Shown in pieces: positions 3,165 to 63,270 of a stretch of DNA of 64,000 nucleotides. Below the pieces are notes generated by a model that saw only the letters and a program-made list of their open reading frames with translations, was not told the origin of the DNA and searched no databases. The number at the start of each line of letters is the position of its first letter. Position 1 is the stretch's first letter. Position numbers and translations under genes: made by a program. The DNA lies in the NCBI RefSeq assembly GCF_030028105.1, contig NC_092374.1:61817377-61881376 (forward strand), given 5' to 3'. This DNA is from Mobula birostris. Taxonomy: Eukaryota.

Positions 3165-4380
3165 AAGTGCTACTCCTGGTCATATACCTCCTCCCTCACT
3201 TCCATTCAGGGCCCCAAACAGTCCTCCCAGGTGAGGCAACACTTCACCTGCAAATCTGCTGAGGTCATCTATTGGCAAATAAGAGAGAATCTGCAGATGC
3301 TGGAAATCCAAGCAATACACACAAAATGCTGGAGGAACTCAGCAAATCAGGCAGCATCGATGGAAAAAGAGTAAACAGTCGATAGTTTTCCATAGATGCT
3401 GCCTGGCCTGCAGGGGTCACCTATTGTGTTTGATGCTCCCAATGCGGCCTTCTCCACATTGGTGAGACCCGTCATAAATTGGGGGACTGTTTCATCGAGC
3501 ACCTCACACCATCTGCCACAGGCAGGACTTCCCAGCAGTCAAATATTTTAATTCCGGTTCCTATTCCCCTTCCAATGTGTCGATCCATGGCCTCCTCGTG
3601 TCAAGATGAGGCCACCCTCAGGGCAAAGGCGCCACCCCTTATATTCTGTCTCAGTACCTTCCAACCTGATGGCATGAATATCGATTTCTCCACCTGGTGA
3701 GCAATCCACCCCCCATACCCCCACCTTCTCCTACACCCATCTCTGACCTCTCACTTCTTCTACACCCATCTCTGACCTTTCACTTCTCCTATATCCATCT
3801 CTGACCTTTCACTTCTCCTATATCCATCTCTGACCTTTCACTTCTTCTACACCCACCTCTAACCTTTCACTTCTCCTATACCCATCTCTGATCTTTCACT
3901 TCTCCTATACCCATCTCTGACCTTTCACTTCTTCTACACCCATCTCTGACCTTTCACTTCTATACCCATCTCTGACCTTTCACTTCTCCTATACTCATCT
4001 CTGACCTTTCACTTCTCCTACACCCATCTCTGACCTTTCACTTCTATACCCATCTCTGACCTTTCACTTCTCCTATACGCATCTCTGACCTTTCACTTCT
4101 CATCTGCCTATTACTTCCCTCTGGGTCCCTTTCTCCTATTGTCCACTCTCCTCTCCCATCAGATTCTTTCTTCTCCAGCCCTTGTCCTTTCCCACCAACC
4201 TGGCTTCACCTATGACCTTCCAGCTAGCTTTCCCTCCCCCCCCCACCTTTTAATTCAGGCATCTACCCCCTTCCTTCCCAGTCCCAAAGAAGGACATCAG
4301 CTTGAAACATCGACTGTTTACTCTTTTCCATAGATGCTTCCTGACTTGCTGAGTTCCTCCAGCATTTTGTGTGTTGCTTC
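3165..4380 (+). mobile_element. Penelope-like element 3' part (GIY-YIG remnant plus pseudo-LTR)
   Basis: QGPKQSSQVRQHFTCKSAEVIY...C..C.L.HIGET...LGDCFIEHL endonuclease remnant; ends with a degenerate hammerhead-type motif and ...gagttcctccagcattttgtgtgttgc. Confidence 0.75.
3725..4103. repeat. Pyrimidine-rich minisatellite, 29/26-bp unit, ~13 copies
   Basis: Tandem ACTTCTCCTATACCCATCTCTGACCTTTC variants with no unique spacers. Confidence 0.95.
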
Positions 4381-22564: not shown

Positions 22565-25500
22565 CTATGTATTTTCCATTGAACTGTTAAACAGTTTGGT
22601 GCCATTGAAGAACCTCTTTGGAATTTTCAGTATCAAAGGTGGTCTGTCTGAAGTGCTTTTAGAAAGAGTTGTCCTTGGTGAAGGACAACGCTGTCCATTA
22701 TCTTGCCCCTGCCCCTTAAAGTTCTGATAATTGCCTGCATCGTTTACTGGATTTACACCTTCTTGTTTAAGACAAGTCTGTCTGCTTGAATATGGAGGAA
22801 CAAGATCAGAATCAGTGGGAAGCCCACAAACATCCAAGGACTCTGTGCTGGTGTTTCCGAATAAAATATCATCAGTAGCACTGGGAAGATCCTGGGCAGT
22901 CTGAGTCTCTGTGAGGTGTTGTTCACCAAGATTGTTAAGAAGATTGGTGGTTTTGCTCAGGGTGCTGTTGTCACTGTCCACATCTGCAACAACCACCTCA
23001 TCGCTATCACTTTCAATAGTTATGACAAGTGGTGAATGAGTTGTGCGATCTGTCCTTCCGCTGCTTTTCTCCTTCCTCTGTTTCTTGTGTTTCTTTTTTC
23101 GCTTATGACGTCTGCTTGCCTCCGTTGCCTTTCCCTCGTACACTATTTCCACACTGGAACTCCTCCGCTTCTCTCTGCGCTTTTTCATCTTGGGTTCACT
23201 GCTTATGGTGCTCTCAGCCACCAATGAGCCACTTTTTGAGTAGCTACTGCATTGAGAATGGGGCCTGGGAGAGCTGCCCTCCCTTCTAGGCAGAGTGTGA
23301 ATCTCTGACGATATTTTAGCAATCTGTAAATTTGCATTTTTGTCATCTTTGTTGGATGAACTTTCCAAATAATGAGTCTTATATTTTCTTTTGCCTCCTG
23401 GTTTTTCTTGCCTCAACCTATCAGTTCGCCCTGAGGTAGTTCTGGACCGGGAACTCGATGGACTTCTTGAACGATAATTTCTGTACTGATAATAGACATC
23501 TTCTCTGTGACTACTTGGGCTTCTGAAGCTCGTACTTTCAGAACTAGATCGAATTCTATAATCCGAACAAGGTGACGTTCTCCGATAGCGAGTCCTACTT
23601 CTGGTTATGGAATCATGACCTTTGTGTGTTCTACTGTGGTAACTGTATCTTTCCCACTGGTATGAGAAACCCCTGTCTCTTTCCTGATATTCTCTCATAT
23701 ATCTGTATGTCCTGTCTCTACTTCTGGATCTTCTTCTGTCCCTCACTGATGCATAGCTTCTGCTCCAAGAGCGCGATCTAGGTCGGTGTCTGTAAACCAC
23801 AACATCACTGTTCTGTGACCTTGTGCGACTTCTCGTAGATGAGGCTCTCTCTCGGTTCCTAGACCTCTTTCTGCTCCACGCTTGATAGGTACAGGTTTCT
23901 TGACTGGCCGACCTGCTTCTATCTTCTAAATATTGGTCTCTGTTAGACCTTTGGCTCCTGTCCTTGACTTGATGCTCACCTCTGCAGTAAGAGTAAGCCA
24001 CCATAGTTCTGTCTACGCTATCTGATCGTTGGTGTCTCCGAAGATCATGCTTCTCTCTGCTTTGTGATCGAAACTTGGATCGATCCTTGGAACTGCTTCT
24101 GACTCTAGCTGATGCCCTTGCTTTGTGCCTGCCTGAAGATGAGGTGCTGCCTCCAGAATGGGAACTCTTTTTGCGATGCTTCTCCCTTTTTGATTTATTC
24201 CTCTTCTTCCGTTTTGACTTCTTTCTTTTCCACCGGTCCCTGGAGATAGAGGATCTGGCTGAGGACGACCTGGTTGACAAGCAGCAACTGCTGGTGCTGC
24301 TGCTGTGGAAACGCGTGTGCGCAGGCTGCGCAGCAACTTCTGTGCTTGTTTCATGCATGGAAACCTCAGAGTCTGAACTCAGTTCAATAAGCTCAGGGGT
24401 CCTCTCAGCCAAAGGCTTCACGTAACCCACGATTAAGCAATCATCTCCCGAGCGAGTCGAACTGTCTTCCTTCGTACCAGGATCAGCCTTTATTGGCACC
24501 ACAGGCAGCACTGACTCGGGCTGCATTGGAGCCTCTTCAGAATCAGAGGCTTCATCAGGCGAGGAATTCCCAGCCTCTAAGGCCTGTGTGACTGAGTAGG
24601 AAGGGCCAGGTGTTTCATCATCCCACGTCGACTGACTTAGGCTAAGAGCCAGCTCCGAGGGATTAGCCGTTGGTCTGTCTGTTTGCAGAGGATCAGCAGC
24701 ATCAGGTGAAATTGCAATTACAGACAAATCTGAGTCACTTTCTTCCTCATAGGATGGGGCTGGACAGTCATAGTTGGCCCTCTGGTCATACGATTCCATG
24801 TTAAATGGAGCTCTGGCGAAACTGATAAACTCATGTAAAAAGTGGTCAGTGCGGTTAAGCAGGAAGGGTCTCAATTCTTCTTGGAATGCCTCACCCTCCA
24901 TATCATACCGGACAATGTTGGACATGATGACGTGTTGCACAATGTTGACAATTGAACCGTGAGAGCCAAACAAGACATAGAGCTCCCTCTTCAGCCATGG
25001 CATCAGGCGATGGAGGCAAGCAGCATTGCGGCGGAAGAAGTCAGCAGAGACGTCACGGTAGCGGCCGCCGTCTTGCACATTCCTGACCCGCACCCCCGAC
25101 CGGTATAACTCACGCCTGAAGTTGACCATCTCTTGTTCTTGGATCTGCCGAGGGGACACACCTTGGGACTGTGCCCTCCTCCGGGCCCTCAGCCGACTCA
25201 TCATGCGACGCAGGTTGCGGCTCTGTTGTGCCCGGGGTTGTCGACCCAGTCCCTCAAACACCACTCCATTGTCAGGCAACGGCGAAATAACCGGAGAGCT
25301 CCGAGGCTGGCGAGCCATACGGCGCTCTCTGGTTAAAGTCGTGCGATATCTAAATCTCTGGCCGCCTGGACTGCCAAATGAGCCATTCTCCGTTGCCTTC
25401 AGGACATACTCTTGGAAATCATTTTCAGTTCGTACACTGTGGAAAATGGAGTTGAAAGGTTGCTTACACAGTGGGCATTCTGCTTTGTTACGGGACCATT

Positions 25501-25693
25501 CCTGAATGCACCGAAAGCAAAATTTGTGGAAGCAACGATCAATGTAAGACATGTTGTCAAATCTGTCCAGACAGATTGGACATTTTGCATCAGGCGATAC
25601 ATCGCCCCGCATTCCATGCTGAATTTTGCTGGTTTCAGGTTCTGAAGAAAATTGGTTCTCTGCATTCAAATCCTCTGTGGTTGATGCCATCAT
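22565..25693 (-). CDS. TOPORS: TOPORS E3 ubiquitin/SUMO ligase, single large coding exon (1042 aa)
   Basis: Acceptor ttttcAG followed directly by ATG ATG GCA; RING CPICLDRFDNMSYIDRCFHKFCFRCIQEWSRNKAECPLCKQPF; conserved LHRLMPWLKREL and SQSTWDDETPGPSYS blocks; RS-rich region; SIM-like ELIELSSDSE, VEIVYEG, LVITIESDSD; TAG at 22565. Confidence 0.97.
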   Translation of the reverse strand: MMASTTEDLNAENQFSSEPETSKIQHGMRGDVSPDAKCPICLDRFDNMSYIDRCFHKFCFRCIQEWSRNKAECPLCKQPFNSIFHSVRTENDFQEYVLKATENGSFGSPGGQRFRYRTTLTRERRMARQPRSSPVISPLPDNGVVFEGLGRQPRAQQSRNLRRMMSRLRARRRAQSQGVSPRQIQEQEMVNFRRELYRSGVRVRNVQDGGRYRDVSADFFRRNAACLHRLMPWLKRELYVLFGSHGSIVNIVQHVIMSNIVRYDMEGEAFQEELRPFLLNRTDHFLHEFISFARAPFNMESYDQRANYDCPAPSYEEESDSDLSVIAISPDAADPLQTDRPTANPSELALSLSQSTWDDETPGPSYSVTQALEAGNSSPDEASDSEEAPMQPESVLPVVPIKADPGTKEDSSTRSGDDCLIVGYVKPLAERTPELIELSSDSEVSMHETSTEVAAQPAHTRFHSSSTSSCCLSTRSSSARSSISRDRWKRKKSKRKKRNKSKREKHRKKSSHSGGSTSSSGRHKARASARVRSSSKDRSKFRSQSREKHDLRRHQRSDSVDRTMVAYSYCRGEHQVKDRSQRSNRDQYLEDRSRSASQETCTYQAWSRKRSRNRERASSTRSRTRSQNSDVVVYRHRPRSRSWSRSYASVRDRRRSRSRDRTYRYMREYQERDRGFSYQWERYSYHSRTHKGHDSITRSRTRYRRTSPCSDYRIRSSSESTSFRSPSSHREDVYYQYRNYRSRSPSSSRSRTTSGRTDRLRQEKPGGKRKYKTHYLESSSNKDDKNANLQIAKISSEIHTLPRREGSSPRPHSQCSSYSKSGSLVAESTISSEPKMKKRREKRRSSSVEIVYEGKATEASRRHKRKKKHKKQRKEKSSGRTDRTTHSPLVITIESDSDEVVVADVDSDNSTLSKTTNLLNNLGEQHLTETQTAQDLPSATDDILFGNTSTESLDVCGLPTDSDLVPPYSSRQTCLKQEGVNPVNDAGNYQNFKGQGQDNGQRCPSPRTTLSKSTSDRPPLILKIPKRFFNGTKLFNSSMENT

Positions 25694-26369
25694 CTGAAAA
25701 TAAAAAGTGAAAATTCCAGTGACGTTATTTTTAGGGGCAGAAATTAAGCTGAGAGAGTCAAACAAATTCAGGTACAGTAGAAAAAGCTCAAATGACCAGG
25801 CTTTAATTATTCTACAACAAAATGAGTAATGAGGGCCAGGGACAACCTGCTTTCAATTTACCCTTCTCCAGGATCCAAGGCATGGTTGAGACAACATGTT
25901 TAACATTTTACAAACTACAAATGCTAACAAGAGCACAACCATTTTTGCCATTTCTTCTAACAACTGAAAACTTATCTTAAAATACAGCAATTCCTCAGAA
26001 CTAATGATTGGAAAAGCCCAAGTTTATATGCCTTTGTCTCTCTCACAAGCTATATTTTCAAGTCATTAAACCTATTCCTGGTAGAAGCTGAAACTGGATC
26101 AGACTGTTAGAAACCTTAATGTCAAAAGTGACTCAGGGACGAACTTTGAATTGCACATTCACATCAACACCAAGACCCTATCTGCAACAATGTCTATTTC
26201 TTCCTCTGCTTCCGTTTCATTCATAATGAAATTCATAGCTTTAGACTTGACTACTTCAAAAGCCTGGCCAGCCTCCCTGGTTCTACCCTCTGCAAACAGG
26301 ATTCTAATGAGCTTTAACTTGCATGAAGTGTCATTCACCCATCACTCTTCCATTTGTAGCAAAATAACC

Positions 26370-27140: not shown

Positions 27141-27958
27141 TGGTAAGTGGTGCTTGATTTTAACATGCTCAGCCTTATTTTCAGACTCGTCCAAGATTTT
27201 GCTGTTTCATAATTCCGAGTTCTTCTGTAGCTTAACAATTCTCCAATCTTAGGTCATTGAATGAACTCCAAATTTAAAAAAAAAATGGCTCTAATACTTG
27301 TGGCTATGCCCTTGGTTATGAGTGTCCATGGCTCTGGAATTTGTTCCTTAAAGTCTTCTCTTTCACTGCCTTTCCTTTTTACAGAACTTCTTAACACCCA
27401 GCTTTTGACATCTGTCCCAGGATTTCTAATGTTATTGACAAGGCTCCTATGAACTGCTCTGGGATGTTTTGGTAGTTGAAGGTGCTATATGAATTGTTGC
27501 CAGAGTACAACAGATTGCATACATTATAGATTGGATGTTGACTGTTGTATGATATTGTACTATATAAAAATTTGGTGAGCTGTCTTCTCAAGTGTGCCAT
27601 CGCAGGTGCAATGCAACCGTTATGTAAATGAATATATCCATACTAAAAATGAGAAAAAATGCAAGTTAAGACTCAGAGACCAAAATAGATTACAAAAATT
27701 ATGTATCAGTACAAAGGCGTCAAGAAATTGAAAACAAACTTGATTATCAAAAAGAGTAGTGAGAATGTAGAATTTGATACATGGAGCAATAAAACAAAGA
27801 TGCATAAACAAGTGAAAAAAGCACAAAGATCTTGGGATGAAGAGGCTTGTAGCAAGCACAAATATTGCCTGGCCTGTAAATTTGATGTAACAGCTGAAAG
27901 AATGAAGAATAAAAATTGTCTGATCAAAAAAACAAGACCACTACAAATGGGAAACTTC

Positions 27959-28105
27959 AAACATGAGAAAGTCTGCAGATGCTGGAAATCAAAGCAACAC
28001 ACACAAGATGCTGGCAGTGTTTTGGACCAAGAACCTGCAGGGCTTACTCTTTTCCACAGATGCTTCCTGAACTGATTGAGTCTCTCCAGCATTTTGTGTG
28101 TGTTG
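27959..28105. mobile_element. Penelope-derived fold-back mini-element
   Basis: Inverted arms gcaacacacacaagatgctgg / ccagcattttgtgtgtgttgc; perfect 15-bp TSD CAAATGGGAAACTTC 27944-27958 / 28106-28120. Confidence 0.8.
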
Positions 28106-28659
28106 CAAATGGGAAACTTCGTGTTTAATATAGGCTTTGATAAATCACTCATTGAGCATCTTATGGGGGGGGGGGGGGAGGAAAAGTCTCTGTAGATGCT
28201 GCTTGACCTGTGGATATTGCATTAACTTATAGTATACACCTCTCAATTCTTTCACTCCTCTCAACGACTCAGATTAGCCAAATTAGTAGCCAATCAACCT
28301 TTTCTACAATGCAACTGTGACTGAATCTAAAAGCGTAATCTACTGATTATAAAGACTTTAAAATGCCCTGATGTTTATAAAATATGTTAGAAAACCAAGT
28401 TTTGTATTTTGATCCCTGCAGCCACACCTCTATGTAACAGGCTGAACTGTTGTGCAATTCAGTGTTATTTACCTCATAACACACCCGAGCCCATGGTGCT
28501 TTTTTGGAACAGCTAATTAATTAGAACCCACTAACTAGTTCACATTTTAACTCTAGAATTAACTGTTCTTCCAAAAAGTGAACTTGATCAAAATTTTTGT
28601 GCTAAGAGCTTTGTCGGACACTTACTTCAAATCTGTTCCTTCTGTACCGTATGAAACAA

Positions 28660-44086: not shown

Positions 44087-44232
44087 AAAACGCAAACAAG
44101 AGGAATTCTGCAGATGCTGGAAATTCAAGCAACACACATCAAAGTTGCTGGTGAACGCAGCAGGCCAGGCAGCGTCTCTAGGAAGAGTCGACATTTCAGG
44201 CCGAGACCCTTCGTCAGGACTAACCAACTGAA
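44087..44232 (-). mobile_element. Penelope pseudo-LTR mini-element with near-intact hammerhead
   Basis: Minus strand AGTC-CTGACGA-AGGGTCTCGGCCT-GAAAT-GTC-GACT at 44186-44221; TSD cttgataattgt 44075-44086 / cttgatgattgt 44233-44244. Confidence 0.8.
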
Positions 44233-48005: not shown

Positions 48006-50370
48006 TCCATTCAGAAATCTGATGGCAGAGGGGAAGAAGCTGTTTTTGATATGTTGAGTGTGTGTCTTAAGGCTCTGGTACCTCCTCCATGATGGTAGCA
48101 ATGAAAAGAGGACATGACCTGGGTGATGGGGGTCCTTAGTGATGGGTGCCACCTATTTGAGGCATCGCCTTTTGAAGGTGTCCTGGATCTTGGGAATGCC
48201 CATGAGTTGAGCTGTCTGTGTTTACAACTTTCCCCAACGCTGCACAGTGGCCCCTCCATACCAGACTGTGACGTAACCAGTCAGAATGCTCTCCACAGTA
48301 CATCTGTAGAAACTTGCAAGTGTCTTTGGTGACATTCCAAGTCTTCTCAAACTCTAATGCAATGTAGCCACTGTCAAGTTTTCTTTGTAATTGCATTAAT
48401 GTGTTGGGCCCAAGACAAATCTTCAGAGACATTGATATCCAGGAACTTGAAACTGCTCAGCCTTTCCGCTTGCTGACCCCTCGATGAGGACCGGTGTGCG
48501 TTCACTAGACTTCCCCTTCCTGAAGTCCTCGATCAATTCCTTGGTCTTAATGATGTTGAGTGTGAGGTTGTTGCTGTGACACCACTCAGCCAGCTGATCC
48601 ATCTCGCTCCTGTACACCTCCTCATCACCGTCTGAAGCTCCGGTAAGAATAGCTGTGTTGTCGGCAAATTTATAGGTAGTGTTTGAGCTGTGCTGGCTCA
48701 CAGTTGTGGGTGTACAGAGAGTACAGCAGGGTGTTAAGCACACATTCTTGAAATGTACCAGTGTTGGTTGTAGGCAAGGGGGAGATGTTATTTCCCATCC
48801 TCAAATACGGTGGTCTCGCGGTGAAGAATTCAAGGATCCAGTTGCAGAGGGAGGTACAGAAAACCAGGTTTTGGAGCTTGTTGATTAGAACTGAGCACAT
48901 GATTGTGTTCAATGCTGAGCTGTACTCAATAAACAGCAGCCTGATGTAGGTACCACTGTTGTCCAAGTGATTCAACGTTGAGTGGAGAGCCAGTGTGATT
49001 GCATCCACTGTAGATCTGTTGTGGTGACAGGCAAATTGCAGTGGATTCAGGTCCTTGATTTGTCAGGAGTTGATTCTAGCCATGACCAATTTCTCAGAGC
49101 ACTTCATCACAGGAGATGTGAGTGCCACTGGGTGACGGCTGTTGAGGCAGCTCACTCTGCTCTCCTTGGGCATTGGTGTGGTTGTCATCCTTTTACAGCA
49201 GTTGGGAACCTCTGACTGCAGCAGAGAGAGATTGAAAGTGTCTTTGGACACTCCTGCCAGTTGAATGGCATGGGCTTTCAGAGGCTACAAAGTACAGCAT
49301 CAGGACCTGACGCCTTGCAATTGTTCACCGTCTTGAAAGATGTTCTGATGTCTGCCCCCGAGACAGAGATCACAGGGTCACCAGATGCTGCAGGGATTCC
49401 CACAAGTGGAGTTTTAATCTCCCTTTCAAAGCGTGAATAAAAGGCATTGAGCTCATGTGGGAGTGAAAAAGCATCACAGCCATTCACGATGTTACGTTTC
49501 GCTCTGTGGGAAGCAATGGCCTGCAAACCCTGCCAGAGCAGACGTACAACCAATTCTGTCTCCAGCCTCAATCAGAATTGTTTCTTCGCTCTTAAACTAG
49601 CTTCCATAGGTTGTACTTGGACTTCTTGTATAGCTCGGGATCACTGGTCTTGAATAACACAGATCTAGCCCTCAGCGGACTACGAATCTCCTGGTTCTTC
49701 CACGGATTTTGTTTCAGCATGTCCGGTATGTTCTCAAAGGCACACATTCATCCATCCATGCAGATCTTGATGAAGTCAGTGACAACTGTGGCACATTCAT
49801 TCAATTTCTAAGATGAATCCCTGAACACTGTCCACTCCACCGACTGAAAGCAATACAGTAAACCTCTCCTGACCATACCTTCTTGGTCTTCATACTGGTG
49901 CTGTGATCTTTAGTCTCTGCCTGTACGCTGGGAGTACAAGTACAATCAGGTGATCGGACTCCCGAAAGTGCAGGCGTGGGATGGCTCGCTAAGTGTCCTT
50001 GATGGTGATAGTAACAGTGGTCAGGTGTGTTTGCTCTTCTGGTTCCACAGGTGATATGTTGGTGGAAGTTGTTCAGGTACTTCTTCAAGCTGGCTTGGTT
50101 GAAATCCCCCACACTGATAGGGAAGGCATCAGGATGCACTGTTTCACGATTGCTGACTACAGTGCACAGCTCCTCTGGAGCCTGTCTGAGATGGAATATC
50201 TCAGGATGATGGTGGAAAATTCCCTCAGCAGATAAAAGGATGATATTTGACTTCCAGCTGTTCCAGATTGGGTGAGCAGGACAGCCACACCCGTGCACCA
50301 CAATGAGTTAATCATAAAGCATACTCCACCCCCTCTCCCTTTAAAAGACAGAACTGACCCTCTTTGCAGA
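48006..50370 (-). mobile_element. Long decayed Rex1/Babar LINE (endonuclease plus RT)
   Basis: GRGGGVCFMIN, GDFNQASLK, TCGTRRANTPDHCY, PVALTSPVMKCSEKLV, YIRLLFIEYSSALNT, YKFADNT, HPGHVLFSLLPS. Confidence 0.9.
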
Positions 50371-50890: not shown

Positions 50891-50979
50891 CGATTTACTG
50901 GATGCAAGTGGCTAGTTGTCTGTCAGTTCAGGGTGACGGGACCTGCTCTCCATTCACCCCGTTACCATCGGGCACTCAC

Positions 50980-51159
50980 ATAAATCCGCCAGAGACTGCG
51001 CGGCTGCAGGAAGCTCTCCCAGAACCTGGCCACAGGCCCTTTGCTGTCGGGAAGGACGGGTTCCCGGGGACTCAGCTCCTGATCCTTTAGCCATTGGCGC
51101 CGCAACTTCACCAGCTGCTCGAATCGCGCCTTCTCGTCCGGCGTGTAACCCAGCGGCAT
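50980..51159 (-). CDS. NDUFB6: NDUFB6 exon 1
   Basis: [60 protein letters not shown] then GTGAGT donor; matches human [36 protein letters not shown]. Confidence 0.96.
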
Positions 51160-51315
51160 CTCCACCACCTCCCGAAGCCGCAGCAGCAGCAGCGAACAAA
51201 CTGAGGTCACCGGGACAGCGCGACCACTCACCCGGGGCGCCCGTTGATGACGTCGCGGCGCCGCTCGGGCTCCCTGTTGCCCCCTGGCGACCAGGAGGAG
51301 AACAGAGCGCTGTCC
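51160..51315 (-). promoter_or_regulatory. NDUFB6 5'UTR and compact CpG promoter with CRE-like, AGGTCA half-site and CTCF-like motifs
   Basis: TGAGGTCA 51202-51209, TGACGTC 51248-51254, minus-strand TGGTCGCCAGGGGGCAAC 51276-51293. Confidence 0.55.
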
Positions 51316-51484
51316 ACCTTCACGCGAAATGCTGCGGGAGCTGAGCAGGTCGGGCAGCATCCGTGAAATTGAATAAACTATCGGACCAGACCCTTCTTCA
51401 GGACTGAAGTGGAAAGGGGAAGATGTCAGAATGTCAAAGCTGGGGGAAGGGAAGGTGATAGGTGAAGCCGTGGGTAAGAAAGGT

Positions 51485-52545
51485 ATCAGAATCGGGTTTA
51501 TTATCACCGGCATGTGACGTGAAGTTTAACTTCGCAGCAGCAGCAGTTCAATGCAATACATAATCTAGCAGAGAAAAATAATAAATAAAATCAAATAATA
51601 ATTAATAAACAAGTAAATCATTACCTATATTGAATAGATTTTTTAAAATGTGCAAAAACAGAAATGCCGTATATTAAAAAAAAAGTGAGGTAGTGTCCAA
51701 AGATTCAATGTCCGTTTAGGGATCGGATAGCAGAGGGGAAGAAGCTGTTCCTGAATCACTGAGTGTGTGCCTTCAGGCTTCTGTACCTCCGACCTGACGG
51801 TAACAGTGAGAAAAGGGCATGCCCTGGGTGCTGGAGGTCCTTAATAATGGACGCTGCTTTTCTGAGACACCACTCCCTGAAGATGTCCTGGGTACTTTGT
51901 AGGCTAGTACCTGAGATGGAGCTGACTAAATTTACAACCTTCTGCAGCTTCTTTCGGTCCTGCGCAGTAGACCCCTATACCAGACAATAATGCAGCCTGT
52001 CAGAATGCTCTCCATGGTACAACTATAGAAGTTTTTGAGTGTATTTGTTGACATGCCAAATCTCTTCAAACTCCTAAAAAAGTATAGCCGCTGTCTTGCC
52101 TTCTTTATAACTACATCGCTATGTTAGGACCAGGTTAGATCCTCAGAGATCTAGACACTCAGGAACTTGAAACTGCTCACTCTCTCCACTTCTGATCCCT
52201 CTATGAGGATTGGTGTGTGTTCCTCTGTCTTACCCTTCCTGAAGTCCACAATCAGCTCTTTCGTCTTACTGACGTTGAGTGCCAGGTTGTTGCTGCGACA
52301 CCACTCCACTAGTTGGCATATCTCACTCCTGTATGCCCTCTTGTCATCCCCTGAGATTCTACCAACAATGGTTGTACCATCAGCAAATTTGTAGATAGTA
52401 TTTGAGCTATGCCTAGCCACACAGTCATGTGTATATAGAGAGTAGAGCAGTGGGCTAAGCACACCCCCTGCGGTGCACCAGCGTGATTGTCAGTGAGGAG
52501 GACATGTATCACCAATCCACACAGATTGTGGTCTTCCGGTTAGAG
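51485..52545 (-). mobile_element. Rex1/Babar LINE 3' fragment
   Basis: [43 protein letters not shown]; tail aataaacccgattctgat; close paralog of 26370-27140. Confidence 0.9.
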
Positions 52546-53412
52546 CTGCAGAGGAAGGAATCTAATAGGACAGGAGAGTGGACAAACCACTTGTTGGGTC
52601 CTTTTGTCAAAGAATGAGACAGTTTGTGTTTCCTCACACTCACAGATAGAAAACCTGGGATATATTGGTCTTTGTAGTTGTATATTTGGTAATGAGGAAC
52701 TACTGAAACAAAATCTAAGATGGAGCCAGATCTCAACAGTAATCCTACTAATATCCAAATTCAAGATTAAGTTTATTCTCATACAAGTAGACTCAGTGGC
52801 CACTTTATTAGGTACATCTGTATACCTGCTCATTAATGCAAACATCAAATCAGCAAATCATGTGGCAACTCAATGTATAAAAGCATGCAGGTGTGGTCAA
52901 GAGCTTCAGCAAGTCAGGCAGCATCTATGGAAATGAAAAAAACACGGCGTTTTATGCTGAGGCCCTTCATCAGGACTGGAAAGGAAGAGGGAAGATGCCA
53001 GACTAAGAAAGTGGGTGTGGGAAAGGAGTATAAGCTAGAAGGTGACAGGTGAAGCCAAGAGGGTGTGGGAGGGGAGATGAAGTGAAAAGCTGGAAGGTGA
53101 TAGATGGAAAAGGTGAAGGATTGGAGAAGAAGGAATCTGATGGGAAAGGAGAGTGGATCAAGGGAGAAAGAGGAGGAGGGGCACCAGGGGGTGATGATAG
53201 GCAGGTGAGGAGAAGAGATAAGATGGGTTGAGGTGTTGTTCGTACCAAACACCAGAATGGGGACGAAATGTGATCTAAGTGGCTCTGACTGTGGAATGAT
53301 TGCTTGTGCTAGATGGAGTGGTTTGAGTATCTTCAGAACTACTGATCTGGGATTTTCACACACAACAGTCTCTAGAGTTTAATGGTGCAAAAAACCAAAA
53401 CATCCAGTGACT

Positions 53413-53609
53413 CACACAAGAAGTTCTGGTGAACGTCGCAGGCCAGGCAGCATCTATAGGAAGAGGCACAGTTGACGTTTCGGGCCGAGACCCTTTGCCA
53501 AAATGTCGACTGTACCTCTTCCCATAGATGCTGCCTGGCCTGCGGCGTTCACTAGAATTTTTTGTGTGTGTTGCTTGAATTTTCAGCATCTGCAGATTTC
53601 CTCATGTTT
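53413..53609. mobile_element. Penelope-derived fold-back mini-element
   Basis: ~70-bp inverted arms; TSD acatccagtgact 53400-53412 / acatccaatgact 53610-53622. Confidence 0.85.
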
Positions 53610-53787
53610 ACATCCAATGACTGGCGGTTCTGTGGGAGAAACTGCCCTTTTAATGAGACAGGTCAGAGGAACAGGCCAGTCTGATTCAAGCTGACAGGAA
53701 GGTGACAGTATCTCAAATAACCACATATTACAACAGTGGTGTGTAGAATTGCATCTCTAAATGCACAACATGTCAAACCTTTAAGAG

Positions 53788-53900
53788 CAACACACATCAA
53801 AGTTGCTGGTGAACACAGCAGGCCAGGCAGCACCTGTAGGAAGAGGTGCAGTCGACGTTTCAGGCCGAGACCCTTCGTCAGGACTAACTGAAGGAAGAGG
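53788..53900 (-). mobile_element. 113-bp Penelope pseudo-LTR mini-element
   Basis: Perfect 10-bp TSD CCTTTAAGAG 53778-53787 / 53901-53910; contains the hammerhead core. Confidence 0.85.
53850..53885 (-). ncRNA. Minimal type I hammerhead ribozyme
   Basis: AGUC (stem I) CUGACGA AGG-gucucgg-CCU (stem II) GAAAC GUC GACU (stem I'); all core nucleotides present; palindromic ACGU stem III as in Penelope-type minimal hammerheads. Confidence 0.75.
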
Positions 53901-54776
53901 CCTTTAAGAGGTTGGGCTACAGCAGGAGAAGACCTCAAATACATACTCAATGGCCACTTTATTAGTTACAGGAGGTAGCTAATAAAATGGTCACTGAGTG
54001 CACCTCCCCAAGGTAAAAAATCCCTGAATGTTAGTTTCTTACAGCAGCAGTACAGTACATTACAAACATAAGTTAACAGATTTAAAACAAGTTATACATA
54101 ACTTTATAATGTACATAAATCACATGTTAAAAACTGGAATATTCATAGCAACGTAGGTGTAAGTTAAGAGACCAAAATATAGCCTGACAGAGGGGTTTTC
54201 AGATTGGTTTCGAAGCTTGATGGCAGTGGGGAAAGAAGCTAGCTGTTGGTTCAGAGGAATGAGTTTGCAAGTCACTTGGTTAATTTACTGTAAATGTGCC
54301 TAATTTTTTTAAAAAAGCTAACAAAAAATGGGTAATTTGATAAATTGTTTTGTTAGTGTCACGCGTACCGAGGTGCAGTGGAAGTGTTTTGAATATCATC
54401 CCTGTAGGAGCCATGCATCTGTTCCCTGTCTGCTGTCTGCATTGTATTCTGTGCTGCGTCTTTATTATGTTTCTATGGGGGTCCAGGCGCAGGTCCATGG
54501 TCTCATGAGACTAACGGATGCCACCATGGTAGCCAGTCACATGAAGGGGGGAGCGTGGTAACAGTGAGGAAATGGAGGCATCGGTGCACTTCCTTGGCCA
54601 TGGCATCTATATGGTTAGACGGGACAGGTTGTTAGTGAAGTTCATTCCCAGGAATTTGAAGTTCTCAACCTTCTTGGCCTCAGCAACACAGATGTAAACA
54701 GAAACCTGTGCACCACCACCCACCTGCTGTCAATGACCAGCTTCCTTGTTTTGCTGACATTGAAGGAATTTTTTTT

Positions 54777-59400: not shown

Positions 59401-60679
59401 TTAATTGGACCAGAGGTGCTTTAAACTGCGTCAAGCGATTCAGTAACCAGAGGATCCAAACTGAAGTGTCTGACAAAGGACACTAATTGTAGAAAACGAG
59501 AGCGATTTCAAGAAATGTGCTGCACAAGGATGATGGAAATAGTAGCTTCCAAAAAGGAAATGGATAAATAGTTGAATAAGAAAATAACACAGGGTGCTTC
59601 GGGTATGGGATGTGGGATTAATTGGAGAGAGTTGGAACAAACACAATGGGCCAAATAGCCACTTTTAGTGCTGAATGAGTACAACCAAAGAGCAACTTCT
59701 TCAGCTAATCACTCAACTCTATTGTTCTATGACCTCATGATGGAATGAATAGTTTTCCTCCATCCACTCCATCAAAACCCCTCATCATTTTGTAAGTTTT
59801 TGCCCCAGCTGCCCTCTCAGGACATGTGGCTCTTTCCTAAAGAAGAGCAGGTGGGTTCTTTTGGAGATCAGACCCTCACCGTCACAGATTTTTTGTTCCT
59901 TGCATTGTGCAACGTACCTTTTTGTTTTCTGTTTAGTGAGTACATTGGTAAGAGTTACATTGGATGTGACAGGAATGCAAATCTTTCCTTTATATTTCTT
60001 CTTCTGCATTGCTTTTATCTCCCTTTATCACAATAACTCTTTGGGTGCTGTCTCTGGAGAAAAAAAGGAAGCACAAACAAATCAGGTTAGGACTTATTAG
60101 TTGTGCTAATCAGATGGGTGCTTGGGCGAGCTGTACAATGCCTTGGGTTTTGCTTGTGCATATCATTTACATTAAAAACGGCCCCAGTCTGTAAACATAG
60201 CGAACATTTGCATATCAGGCGCTGTTCATTGCAATCGCAGCTGTTACAGCTCCTGCTTTATTTGCAGCACCCTCGGCAACATCACGTCAAATATTTCAGT
60301 AGCATTTAATTAGATACTGAAACGGCACCAGGAAGATTATTTTTCAGCAAAGGGGTAGGGTGACATTTGTATTGTTTTATTTCCATTAGCACAAGGCCTT
60401 TAAATCACGGCACAATGTCCCAAAGGCTTCAGCACAGTATTATTGAATAAAAATGGTCAGGGAGCCACTGAGGAAAGGTGAGGGCTAAAGGATCAGAGAG
60501 CTTACCAGGGAGGTGGAGAGGTTAGTGGAGAGAATTCAGGAACCTGGCACCTTGATAGTTGAAGGCACAGCTGACAATAACAAATAGAATAATGGACTGA
60601 AAGATTAAGCTACTGCCTTGACCATTGGAAGCAAGTGAAGATTTACCAGGCACTGCATGTCAGGGAATTCAGAAGCTGA

Positions 60680-60806
60680 TGCACACAAAATGTTAGAAAA
60701 ATTCAGCAGGCCAGGCAGCATCTATGGAAGCATTGCCTGCTGGGTTCCTCCAGCAATTTCTGTGTGTTGCTTTGGATCTCCAGCATCTGCAGATTTTCTC
60801 GTTTGT
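60680..60806. mobile_element. Penelope-derived fold-back mini-element
   Basis: Inverted arms gcacacaaaatgttagaaaaattcagcagg / cctgctgggttcctccagcaatttctgtgtgttgc; TSD aattcagaagctga 60666-60679 / aattcaaaagctga 60807-60820. Confidence 0.75.
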
Positions 60807-62790: not shown

Positions 62791-63059
62791 TGTATATTGG
62801 TTTATTAATGTCCTTCAGGGAAGAAGATTTGCCATCCATATTTGGTCTGAACAGTGTGTGACCAAACGTATTTGTAAGAAAAATACCCATCCTTTAAAAT
62901 TAATGTTTCCACCAAAGAGATGCAGAAGGAATAACCAATTACTCTGATTTAAAATTGGTTCACAAAATTACGTCTGGTGGACTACAGATGGAATAGCTGT
63001 TTCCAGTGGCAGGAGGGTCAATAACCATGGAATTGGGTCTCCCTGGATCTGCACAAGGC

Positions 63060-63270
63060 AATACACACAAAATGATGGGGGAACTCAGCTGGTCAGGCAG
63101 CATCTATGGAGAGAAATAAACAGTTGACTTCTCGGGCGAGACCTTTCAATGGAACTGGAAAGGGCGGAAGACAAAATAAGAAGGTGGGTGGGGGGATGGG
63201 GAGGAGTATATACTCCATGTTGTTGTGTGTTGCTTAAGATTTCCAGCATTTGCAGAATCTCTTGCGTCTA
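63060..63270. mobile_element. Penelope-derived element with inverted ends
   Basis: caatacacacaaaat... / ...tgtgtgttgcttaagatttccagcatttgcag; flanking direct repeat cacaaggc 63052-63059 / 63271-63278. Confidence 0.7.

What the first reader, a model, noticed from the sequence alone, without database searches (positions are those of the whole stretch)
53778..53910. 113-bp TSD-flanked mini-retroelement that is little more than a hammerhead ribozyme cassette
Seen: an insertion bounded by a perfect 10-bp duplication. Its minus strand reads AGUC-CUGACGA-AGG(gucucgg)CCU-GAAAC-GUC-GACU, a complete type I hammerhead core with stem I, stem II and a palindromic ACGU in place of stem III. Known: Penelope-like elements carry such minimal hammerheads in their pseudo-LTRs; these are thought to cleave as dimers, and hammerhead-bearing non-autonomous retrozymes exist. 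Inference: this is a young, independently inserted solo ribozyme unit, either a retrozyme-like family mobilised by Penelope RT or an extreme truncation product.
Basis: partly seen in the sequence, partly recalled or inferred. Interest (0 to 1): 0.72.

Follow-up and report, generated by a model that had tools for sequence, protein, structure and literature searches.

The report
Penelope retroelement end stub with hammerhead
This 113-base insertion is real, but it is only the last 113 bases of a very abundant Penelope-like jumping gene with its known minimal hammerhead motif, likely a copy whose reverse transcription stopped early; the one unusual point is that about a fifth of the family's sampled copies begin right at the motif's front edge.

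Summary
Observation confirmed: 113 bp between perfect 10-bp duplications, with an intact minimal type I hammerhead on the minus strand; related copies of the surrounding repeat show the empty site. It is not a discrete retrozyme. The 37-nt hammerhead core has 19,720 exact matches in this 4-Gb vertebrate genome, and longer copies run on without a break into a reverse transcriptase plus GIY-YIG frame of a Penelope-like element (Neptune-type linker, repeat unit about 3.7 kb). Its 3' end is one of the family's two standard ends, 37 nt apart (the known 'tail'). Its 5' end is shared by 1 of 100 sampled copies; 49 of 100 exceed 200 nt; none starts at the ribozyme cut site. One real oddity: 19 of 100 copies start within 96-100 nt, at the first base of stem I, and about 1,800 do so genome-wide. 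No cap-derived G is seen there, so a start site, a structure-protected RNA end and an RT stop remain open. I found no paper stating this pile-up (three searches), but this scan noted the stub and the pile-up before on other genomes. Cleavage untested. Mostly ordinary.

The parts
53778..53787 (.). Target-site duplication, copy at the element's 3' end
   Evidence: exact 10-mer; single copy in empty related sites
53788..53900 (-). Last 113 nt of the pLTR of a Penelope-like element (5'-truncated, tail-less form)
   Evidence: 2 differences from the end of a 3,580-bp TSD-flanked copy that encodes RT and GIY-YIG
53850..53885 (-). Minimal type I hammerhead motif: stem I 53885-82/53853-50, CUGACGA 53881-75, stem II 53874-72/53864-62, GAAA 53861-58, palindromic ACGU in place of stem III; predicted cut between 53854 and 53853
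   Evidence: read from sequence; descriptor hit, 0 in shuffles; activity untested
53883..53887 (-). Family-wide 5'-end pile-up (96-100 nt from the short 3' end, peak at 53885); this copy runs 15 nt beyond the peak
   Evidence: 19 of 100 sampled copies; 2,010 of 24,202 cores with a non-templated neighbour, 64 of 70 examined are junctions
53901..53910 (.). Target-site duplication, copy at the element's 5' end
   Evidence: exact 10-mer
53226..54000 (.). Older interspersed repeat (74-89% to related copies) into which the stub inserted

Best explanation
The 113 bp are the 3'-terminal piece of an abundant endonuclease-bearing Penelope-like retrotransposon, likely inserted by target-primed reverse transcription that stopped just after copying the hammerhead. 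Shown: identity with the element's end, colinear continuation of longer copies into RT and GIY-YIG, two standard 3' ends 37 nt apart, staggered 5' ends, a true target duplication. Inferred from the Anolis PLE work: the element's protein nicks the target, primes inside its RNA at one of two sites downstream of the hammerhead (here the proximal one, so no tail), copies 113 nt and joins the other target strand. The hammerhead is likely a passenger here: a lone minimal motif is predicted not to cleave, and nothing points to a function of this copy.
For: 19,720 exact matches of the 37-nt core and 50,261 of the last 26 nt, 0 for the reversed controls. Among the 30 best hits of the 113-mer, colinear sharing ran from 113 to more than 1,600 nt upstream. 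Two of these extended copies encode RT (YIDD motif; Pfam RVT_1 E 3.4e-6, 27.3 bits, below the 29.6 cut-off) and GIY-YIG (E 8.7e-5, above cut-off) on the same strand, with a CX4CxxC linker. 14 of 30 copies holding the element's 5' part have an upstream pLTR running through hammerhead and tail into the ORF leader; in 9 of the 10 read out, an ATG opening 149-640 codons lies 170 nt after stem I starts: the partial tandem of PLEs. First 100 places of the 26-mer: 3' ends 37 at 0..+5 and 63 at +23..+37; 5' ends 49 over 200 nt, 1 at 111-115, 0 at 64-68 (cut site = 66). Core-based sample, 97 of the first 100 places: 57 over 200 nt, 3 at 111-115. At this copy's 5' boundary 28 of 30 examined genomic variants continue upstream. 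PMC8557442 (passages) lists 5' truncation, inverted 5' copies and a 30-40 bp tail as PLE hallmarks; PMC4209133 (parts 1-2 of 4) says most minimal hammerheads are single motifs probably related to truncated PLEs and that a single motif did not cleave; PMC11167929 (parts 1-2 of 4) shows two internal RT start sites bracketing the tail, with cleavage not needed for insertion.
Against: 5' ends are not random: 19 of 51 copies of 40-200 nt start at 96-100 (binomial p 4e-16 against uniform; arms of two-armed insertions count twice; non-inverted only 8 of 20, p 8e-8), so plain stochastic truncation does not describe the family fully. For this single copy, truncation cannot be told from a minor defined end. 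Clade rests on a motif, no tree was built. Both samples come from the first 14 Mb of one contig.
Confidence: 0.92

Rival explanations
1. The short copies are complete cDNAs of a template with a defined 5' end at the hammerhead's front edge (transcription start, or an RNA end trimmed back to the folded or protein-bound motif), primed internally 98 or 135 nt downstream; the 113-nt copy would be the shoulder of this class. This refines rather than replaces the best explanation.
For: Sharp upper edge at 98-99 with a trail to shorter lengths. 2,010 of 24,202 cores have a non-templated letter before AGUCC; 64 of 70 examined are junctions: 31 inverted, 12 with TSD (chance 9 of 4,830), 4 tandem or deletion, 17 unexplained, so about 1,800 copies or 7.6%, against about 1.6% at this copy's boundary (2 of 30 among 6,950 of 29,619). 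UUAGUCC fits the initiator consensus YYANWYY (recalled). D. virilis Penelope has an internal promoter with an initiator (PMC2377424, passages).
Against: No cap signature: the letter before the junction is G in 18 of 64 (p 0.89) and 2 of 12 TSD cases. The 5 near-full-length copies with a short upstream pLTR start at about 69, 81, 88, 92 and 151 nt, none at 98. This copy starts 15 nt upstream of the peak. Some of the 17 unexplained junctions may be other subfamilies with a different upstream sequence.
Confidence: 0.4
2. The pile-up is an RT stop: once both arms of stem I are copied, the new cDNA folds back on itself (GACT on AGTC) and is released or self-primes, which would also seed the two-armed insertions.
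For: C before the junction is in excess, 31 of 64 (p 0.001) and 15 of 29 among TSD and unexplained cases (p 0.01), the letter a one-base fold-back extension would add; 31 of 64 junctions are inverted, several at the stem I microhomology.
Against: Stem I is only 4 pairs; most inverted partners join at other places with about 2 nt of microhomology; the C excess in inverted cases follows from microhomology alone.
Confidence: 0.35
3. A discrete non-autonomous retrozyme: a 113-nt unit that self-cleaves as a dimer, circularises and is reinserted by the PLE protein.
For: Intact core, perfect TSD, palindromic ACGU fit for dimer pairing; 2 of 30 loci show short tandem hammerhead repeats; a preprint derives non-LTR retrozymes from pLTRs (10.64898/2026.07.22.740005, part 1 of 5 and passages).
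Against: Solo, not tandem; no fixed 113-nt end; 0 of 100 copies start at the cut site; no sequence of its own against the autonomous element (2 differences); minimal, not canonical, motif.
Confidence: 0.03

Closest known systems
5'-truncated and solo pLTR insertions of EN+ Penelope-like elements with minimal hammerheads (PMC4209133; PMC8557442)
   Same: Minimal type I motif with palindromic 15.2-16.2 pair in the pLTR, thousands of solo copies, 5' truncation, inverted 5' arms, optional 30-40 bp tail, partial tandems, RT plus C-terminal GIY-YIG.
   Different: Stem II is short (3-4 pairs) against 7-8 in the Schistosoma motifs; the passages read do not mention a 5'-end pile-up at stem I.
PAc, Poseidon element of Anolis carolinensis (PMC11167929)
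   Same: Two 3' ends bracketing a tail, downstream of the hammerhead, at the pLTR-ORF junction.
   Different: PAc's ORF begins in stem II and RT starts inside the ORF; here the ATG lies 35 nt beyond the tail and the protein has the CX4CxxC linker of Neptune-type elements.
Animal non-LTR retrozymes (PMC7229834; 10.64898/2026.07.22.740005)
   Same: Type I hammerhead, non-coding, pLTR-related, TSDs longer than 4 bp.
   Different: Those are tandem repeats of 150-450 bp units, many with canonical motifs, expressed as circles; this is a solo, colinear end piece with no fixed unit.

Membership tests
EN+ Penelope-like element (stub of) | Parent encodes RT and C-terminal GIY-YIG in one frame | tested here: met
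   copies read carry stops and frameshifts; RVT_1 score below Pfam cut-off
EN+ Penelope-like element (stub of) | Partial tandem pLTR-ORF-pLTR arrangement | tested here: met
   14 of 30 loci
EN+ Penelope-like element (stub of) | Optional 30-40 bp tail, 5' truncation, inverted 5' arms | tested here: met
   37-nt tail; 37 short and 63 long 3' ends of 100; inverted arms common
Neptune clade | CX2-5CxxC linker between RT and EN (PMC8557442) | tested here: met
   CX4CxxC in the L061 frame; shared with Nematis
Neptune clade | RT phylogeny groups with Neptune | not tested
   no tree built
Minimal type I hammerhead | CUGANGA and GAAA cores, UH site, stems I and II, palindromic stem III remnant | tested here: met
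Minimal type I hammerhead | Covariation of stems | tested here: inconclusive
   146 of 222 motif hits identical, the rest scattered changes; no paired changes among the 40 commonest forms
Minimal type I hammerhead | Self-cleavage as dimer or with protein | not testable with these tools
   bench assay needed
Non-LTR retrozyme | Tandem units each with a hammerhead | tested here: not met
   solo copy
Non-LTR retrozyme | Fixed unit length or ends set by cleavage | tested here: not met
   1 of 100 at 111-115 nt, 0 of 100 at the cut site
Non-LTR retrozyme | Expressed as linear and circular monomers | not testable with these tools
   only contigs of uncertain kind were available

The most novel reading that the evidence does not exclude
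The front edge of the minimal hammerhead sets a hard stop for Penelope-like cDNA synthesis, as a defined RNA 5' end or a fold-back stop, and so yields thousands of 98- and 135-nt 'strong-stop' insertions and many two-armed ones: a non-catalytic role for a motif whose function is unresolved, readable from the genome's fossil record.
Probability: 0.5. Interest if true: 0.45.

Novelty: new member of a known kind. Interest (0 to 1): 0.22.

Why it matters
The copy itself is one of tens of thousands and likely inert. The family's end map matters modestly: what the hammerhead does in endonuclease-bearing PLEs is stated to be unclear (PMC8557442), and cleavage was dispensable in vitro (PMC11167929). 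Insertions that avoid the cut site but pile up at the first base of stem I give a precise, testable position for a transcription start, a protected RNA end or an RT stop.

Tried and rejected
Rfam scan: no hammerhead family; one weak mir-2131 hit (34.3 bits against a threshold of 92) on the neighbouring palindrome, rejected. Folding energy: no signal; cofolding two cores did not give the dimeric hammerhead fold, uninformative. Cap-G idea (first seen in a handful of junctions): not borne out in 64 junctions. Spliced-template idea (pyrimidine tract plus AG just before the core): no shared upstream exon among the 12 TSD junctions, whose fillers differ. Ends set by ribozyme cleavage: 0 of 100. A second fixed end at 112-113: the 6,950 non-T neighbours are mostly a subfamily variant (95 of the first 100 listed), 28 of 30 continue upstream. 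Expression: no RNA holder listed. Contigs of four runs of uncertain kind show loose ends at the stem I edge and at the tail end, but subfamily divergence can give the same, so not counted as support. No contig bridged this locus, so presence or absence in other individuals is unknown. Look-up of earlier findings by sequence gave nothing. My interim label 'Penelope/Poseidon clade' was dropped for Neptune-type after reading the linker. Paper supplements were not opened; those of PMC11167929 (end maps of genomic copies) may bear on whether the pile-up is in print.

Full report
Observation. The window holds CCTTTAAGAG at 53778-53787 and 53901-53910 with 113 bp between. A minimal-hammerhead descriptor finds it and one more copy (44221) in the window and nothing in 30 shuffles. 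Rfam has no matching family and the strand folds no better than shuffles. The duplication is a true target duplication: the flanks are an older repeat, and 14 of 14 related copies examined lack the insert and hold the target once, 11 of them aligning straight into the right flank.

Setting. The genome has 4.0 billion bases. The window holds the first exon of an NDUFB6-like gene (Pfam NDUF_B6, E 1.6e-22; ATG at 51159, minus strand) and a 1,095-codon RING-finger frame that I recall as TOPORS-like, so it is a vertebrate; the stub lies about 2.6 kb upstream of the NDUFB6-like start codon. That it is a cartilaginous fish is a recalled resemblance, not tested.

Parent element. The 37-nt core has 19,720 exact matches and the last 26 nt 50,261, with 0 for the reversed controls. 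Of the 30 best matches to the 113-mer, most continue upstream, some for more than 1,600 nt. Two were extended: they encode an RT with YIDD (Pfam RVT_1, E 3.4e-6, below cut-off) and a GIY-YIG domain (E 8.7e-5) on the hammerhead's strand, with a CX4CxxC linker, which PMC8557442 (passages) gives for Neptune-type elements; no tree was built. One copy (L062) is 3,580 bp with a 14-bp duplication, and the stub differs from its end at 2 of 113 places. Of 30 loci holding the element's 5' part, 14 have an upstream pLTR that runs through hammerhead and tail into the ORF leader; in 9 of the 10 read out an ATG lies 170 nt after the first base of stem I. The unit is thus about 3.7 kb in partial tandem.

Ends. 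Two positional samples from the start of contig 1 were mapped on L062. Sample 1: 97 of the first 100 places of the core; 5' lengths 98-104 in 21, 105-200 in 19, over 200 in 57, 111-115 in 3; 3' ends 36 near the stub's end, 46 at +27 or more, 15 elsewhere. Sample 2: all of the first 100 places of the terminal 26-mer, not conditioned on the hammerhead; 3' ends 37 at 0..+5 and 63 at +23..+37; 5' lengths over 200 in 49, 111-115 in 1, 64-68 (cut site 66) in 0, 96-100 in 19, exactly 98 in 9. The two samples overlap in part. Of 22 non-inverted copies with a detected duplication, 10 start at 86-105. The two 3' ends match the optional tail between two internal RT start sites shown for the Anolis element (PMC11167929, parts 1-2 of 4).

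The stub's own 5' end is not a family end: 6,950 of 29,619 matches have another letter there, but 95 of the first 100 are one subfamily variant and 28 of 30 loci continue upstream, leaving roughly 1.6% junctions. Its last base makes the end match an internal 13-nt direct repeat 54 nt away, which may be slippage or chance.

The pile-up. At the first base of stem I, 2,010 of 24,202 cores have a non-templated neighbour. Of the first 70 examined, 64 are junctions (31 inverted, 12 with a target duplication against a chance rate of 9 in 4,830, 4 tandem or deletion, 17 unexplained) and 6 are longer copies: about 1,800 copies, 7.6%. The preceding letter is C in 31, G in 18, A in 15; G is not in excess (p 0.89), C is (p 0.001). 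So the cap-derived G that I first suspected is absent. A defined template end and a fold-back stop of the cDNA at stem I both remain; some unexplained junctions may be other subfamilies. The window's second copy (44130-44224) starts at 101 nt, inside this zone.

How it most likely works. Shown: the stub is the element's end, with a standard 3' end, a duplicated target and a non-standard 5' end. Inferred: the element's protein nicked the target, primed inside its RNA 66 nt downstream of the predicted cut site, copied through the uncleaved hammerhead and stopped 15 nt beyond it. A lone minimal motif did not cleave in PMC4209133 (parts 1-2 of 4), and cleavage was not needed for insertion in PMC11167929, so the motif is likely a passenger in this copy.

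Comparison. It works like, and meets the tested features of, a truncated pLTR insertion of an EN+ PLE. It fails the tested features of non-LTR retrozymes, tandem units and fixed ends (PMC7229834, passages; 10.64898/2026.07.22.740005, part 1 of 5 and passages). Three answered paper searches and the parts read showed no statement of a 5'-end pile-up at stem I; supplements were not opened, and subscription papers are not in the library. This scan's own notes report the same kind of stub on at least 4 other genomes, three of them with the pile-up; I reached the reading before seeing them, and they are not independent evidence.

Verdict. Real, well explained, ordinary as a copy; the family's 5'-end pile-up is a modest, testable lead. 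Interest 0.22.

Noticed in passing
window 53400-53622: A second, older, two-armed (head-to-head) insertion of the same Penelope pLTR end, arms 83% complementary, with a 13-bp duplication (12 of 13 alike), in the same host repeat 170 bp away; it explains the weak mir-2131 hit.
   Followed up: partly
window 44093-44224: Another stub of the family, with tail, starting 101 nt from the short 3' end, 89% to the finding.
   Followed up: partly
window 4267-4376, 3277-3421, 52907-52990, 60679-60805, 63059-63147, 27958-28106, 51388-51405: Older, 70-89% relatives of the same pLTR end; the 18-nt match at 51388-51405 lies about 230 bp upstream of the NDUFB6-like start codon.
   Followed up: no
window 53226-54000: The host repeat is abundant (2,962 candidates) and ends in a 25-nt inverted pair at 53945-53999 that I recall as Tc1/mariner-like terminal sequence; not tested.
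   Followed up: partly
window 22565-25852 and 50962-51525, minus strand: RING-finger frame of 1,095 codons (recalled as TOPORS-like) and NDUFB6-like first exon, neighbours as in mammals by recall.
   Followed up: partly
L189, L195: Short tandem repeats of the hammerhead core itself (about 33-35 nt period), possible seeds of retrozyme-like arrays.
   Followed up: no
G000 contig 1: Listed matches are denser in the first 14 Mb than further along the contig, so copy density is uneven.
   Followed up: no
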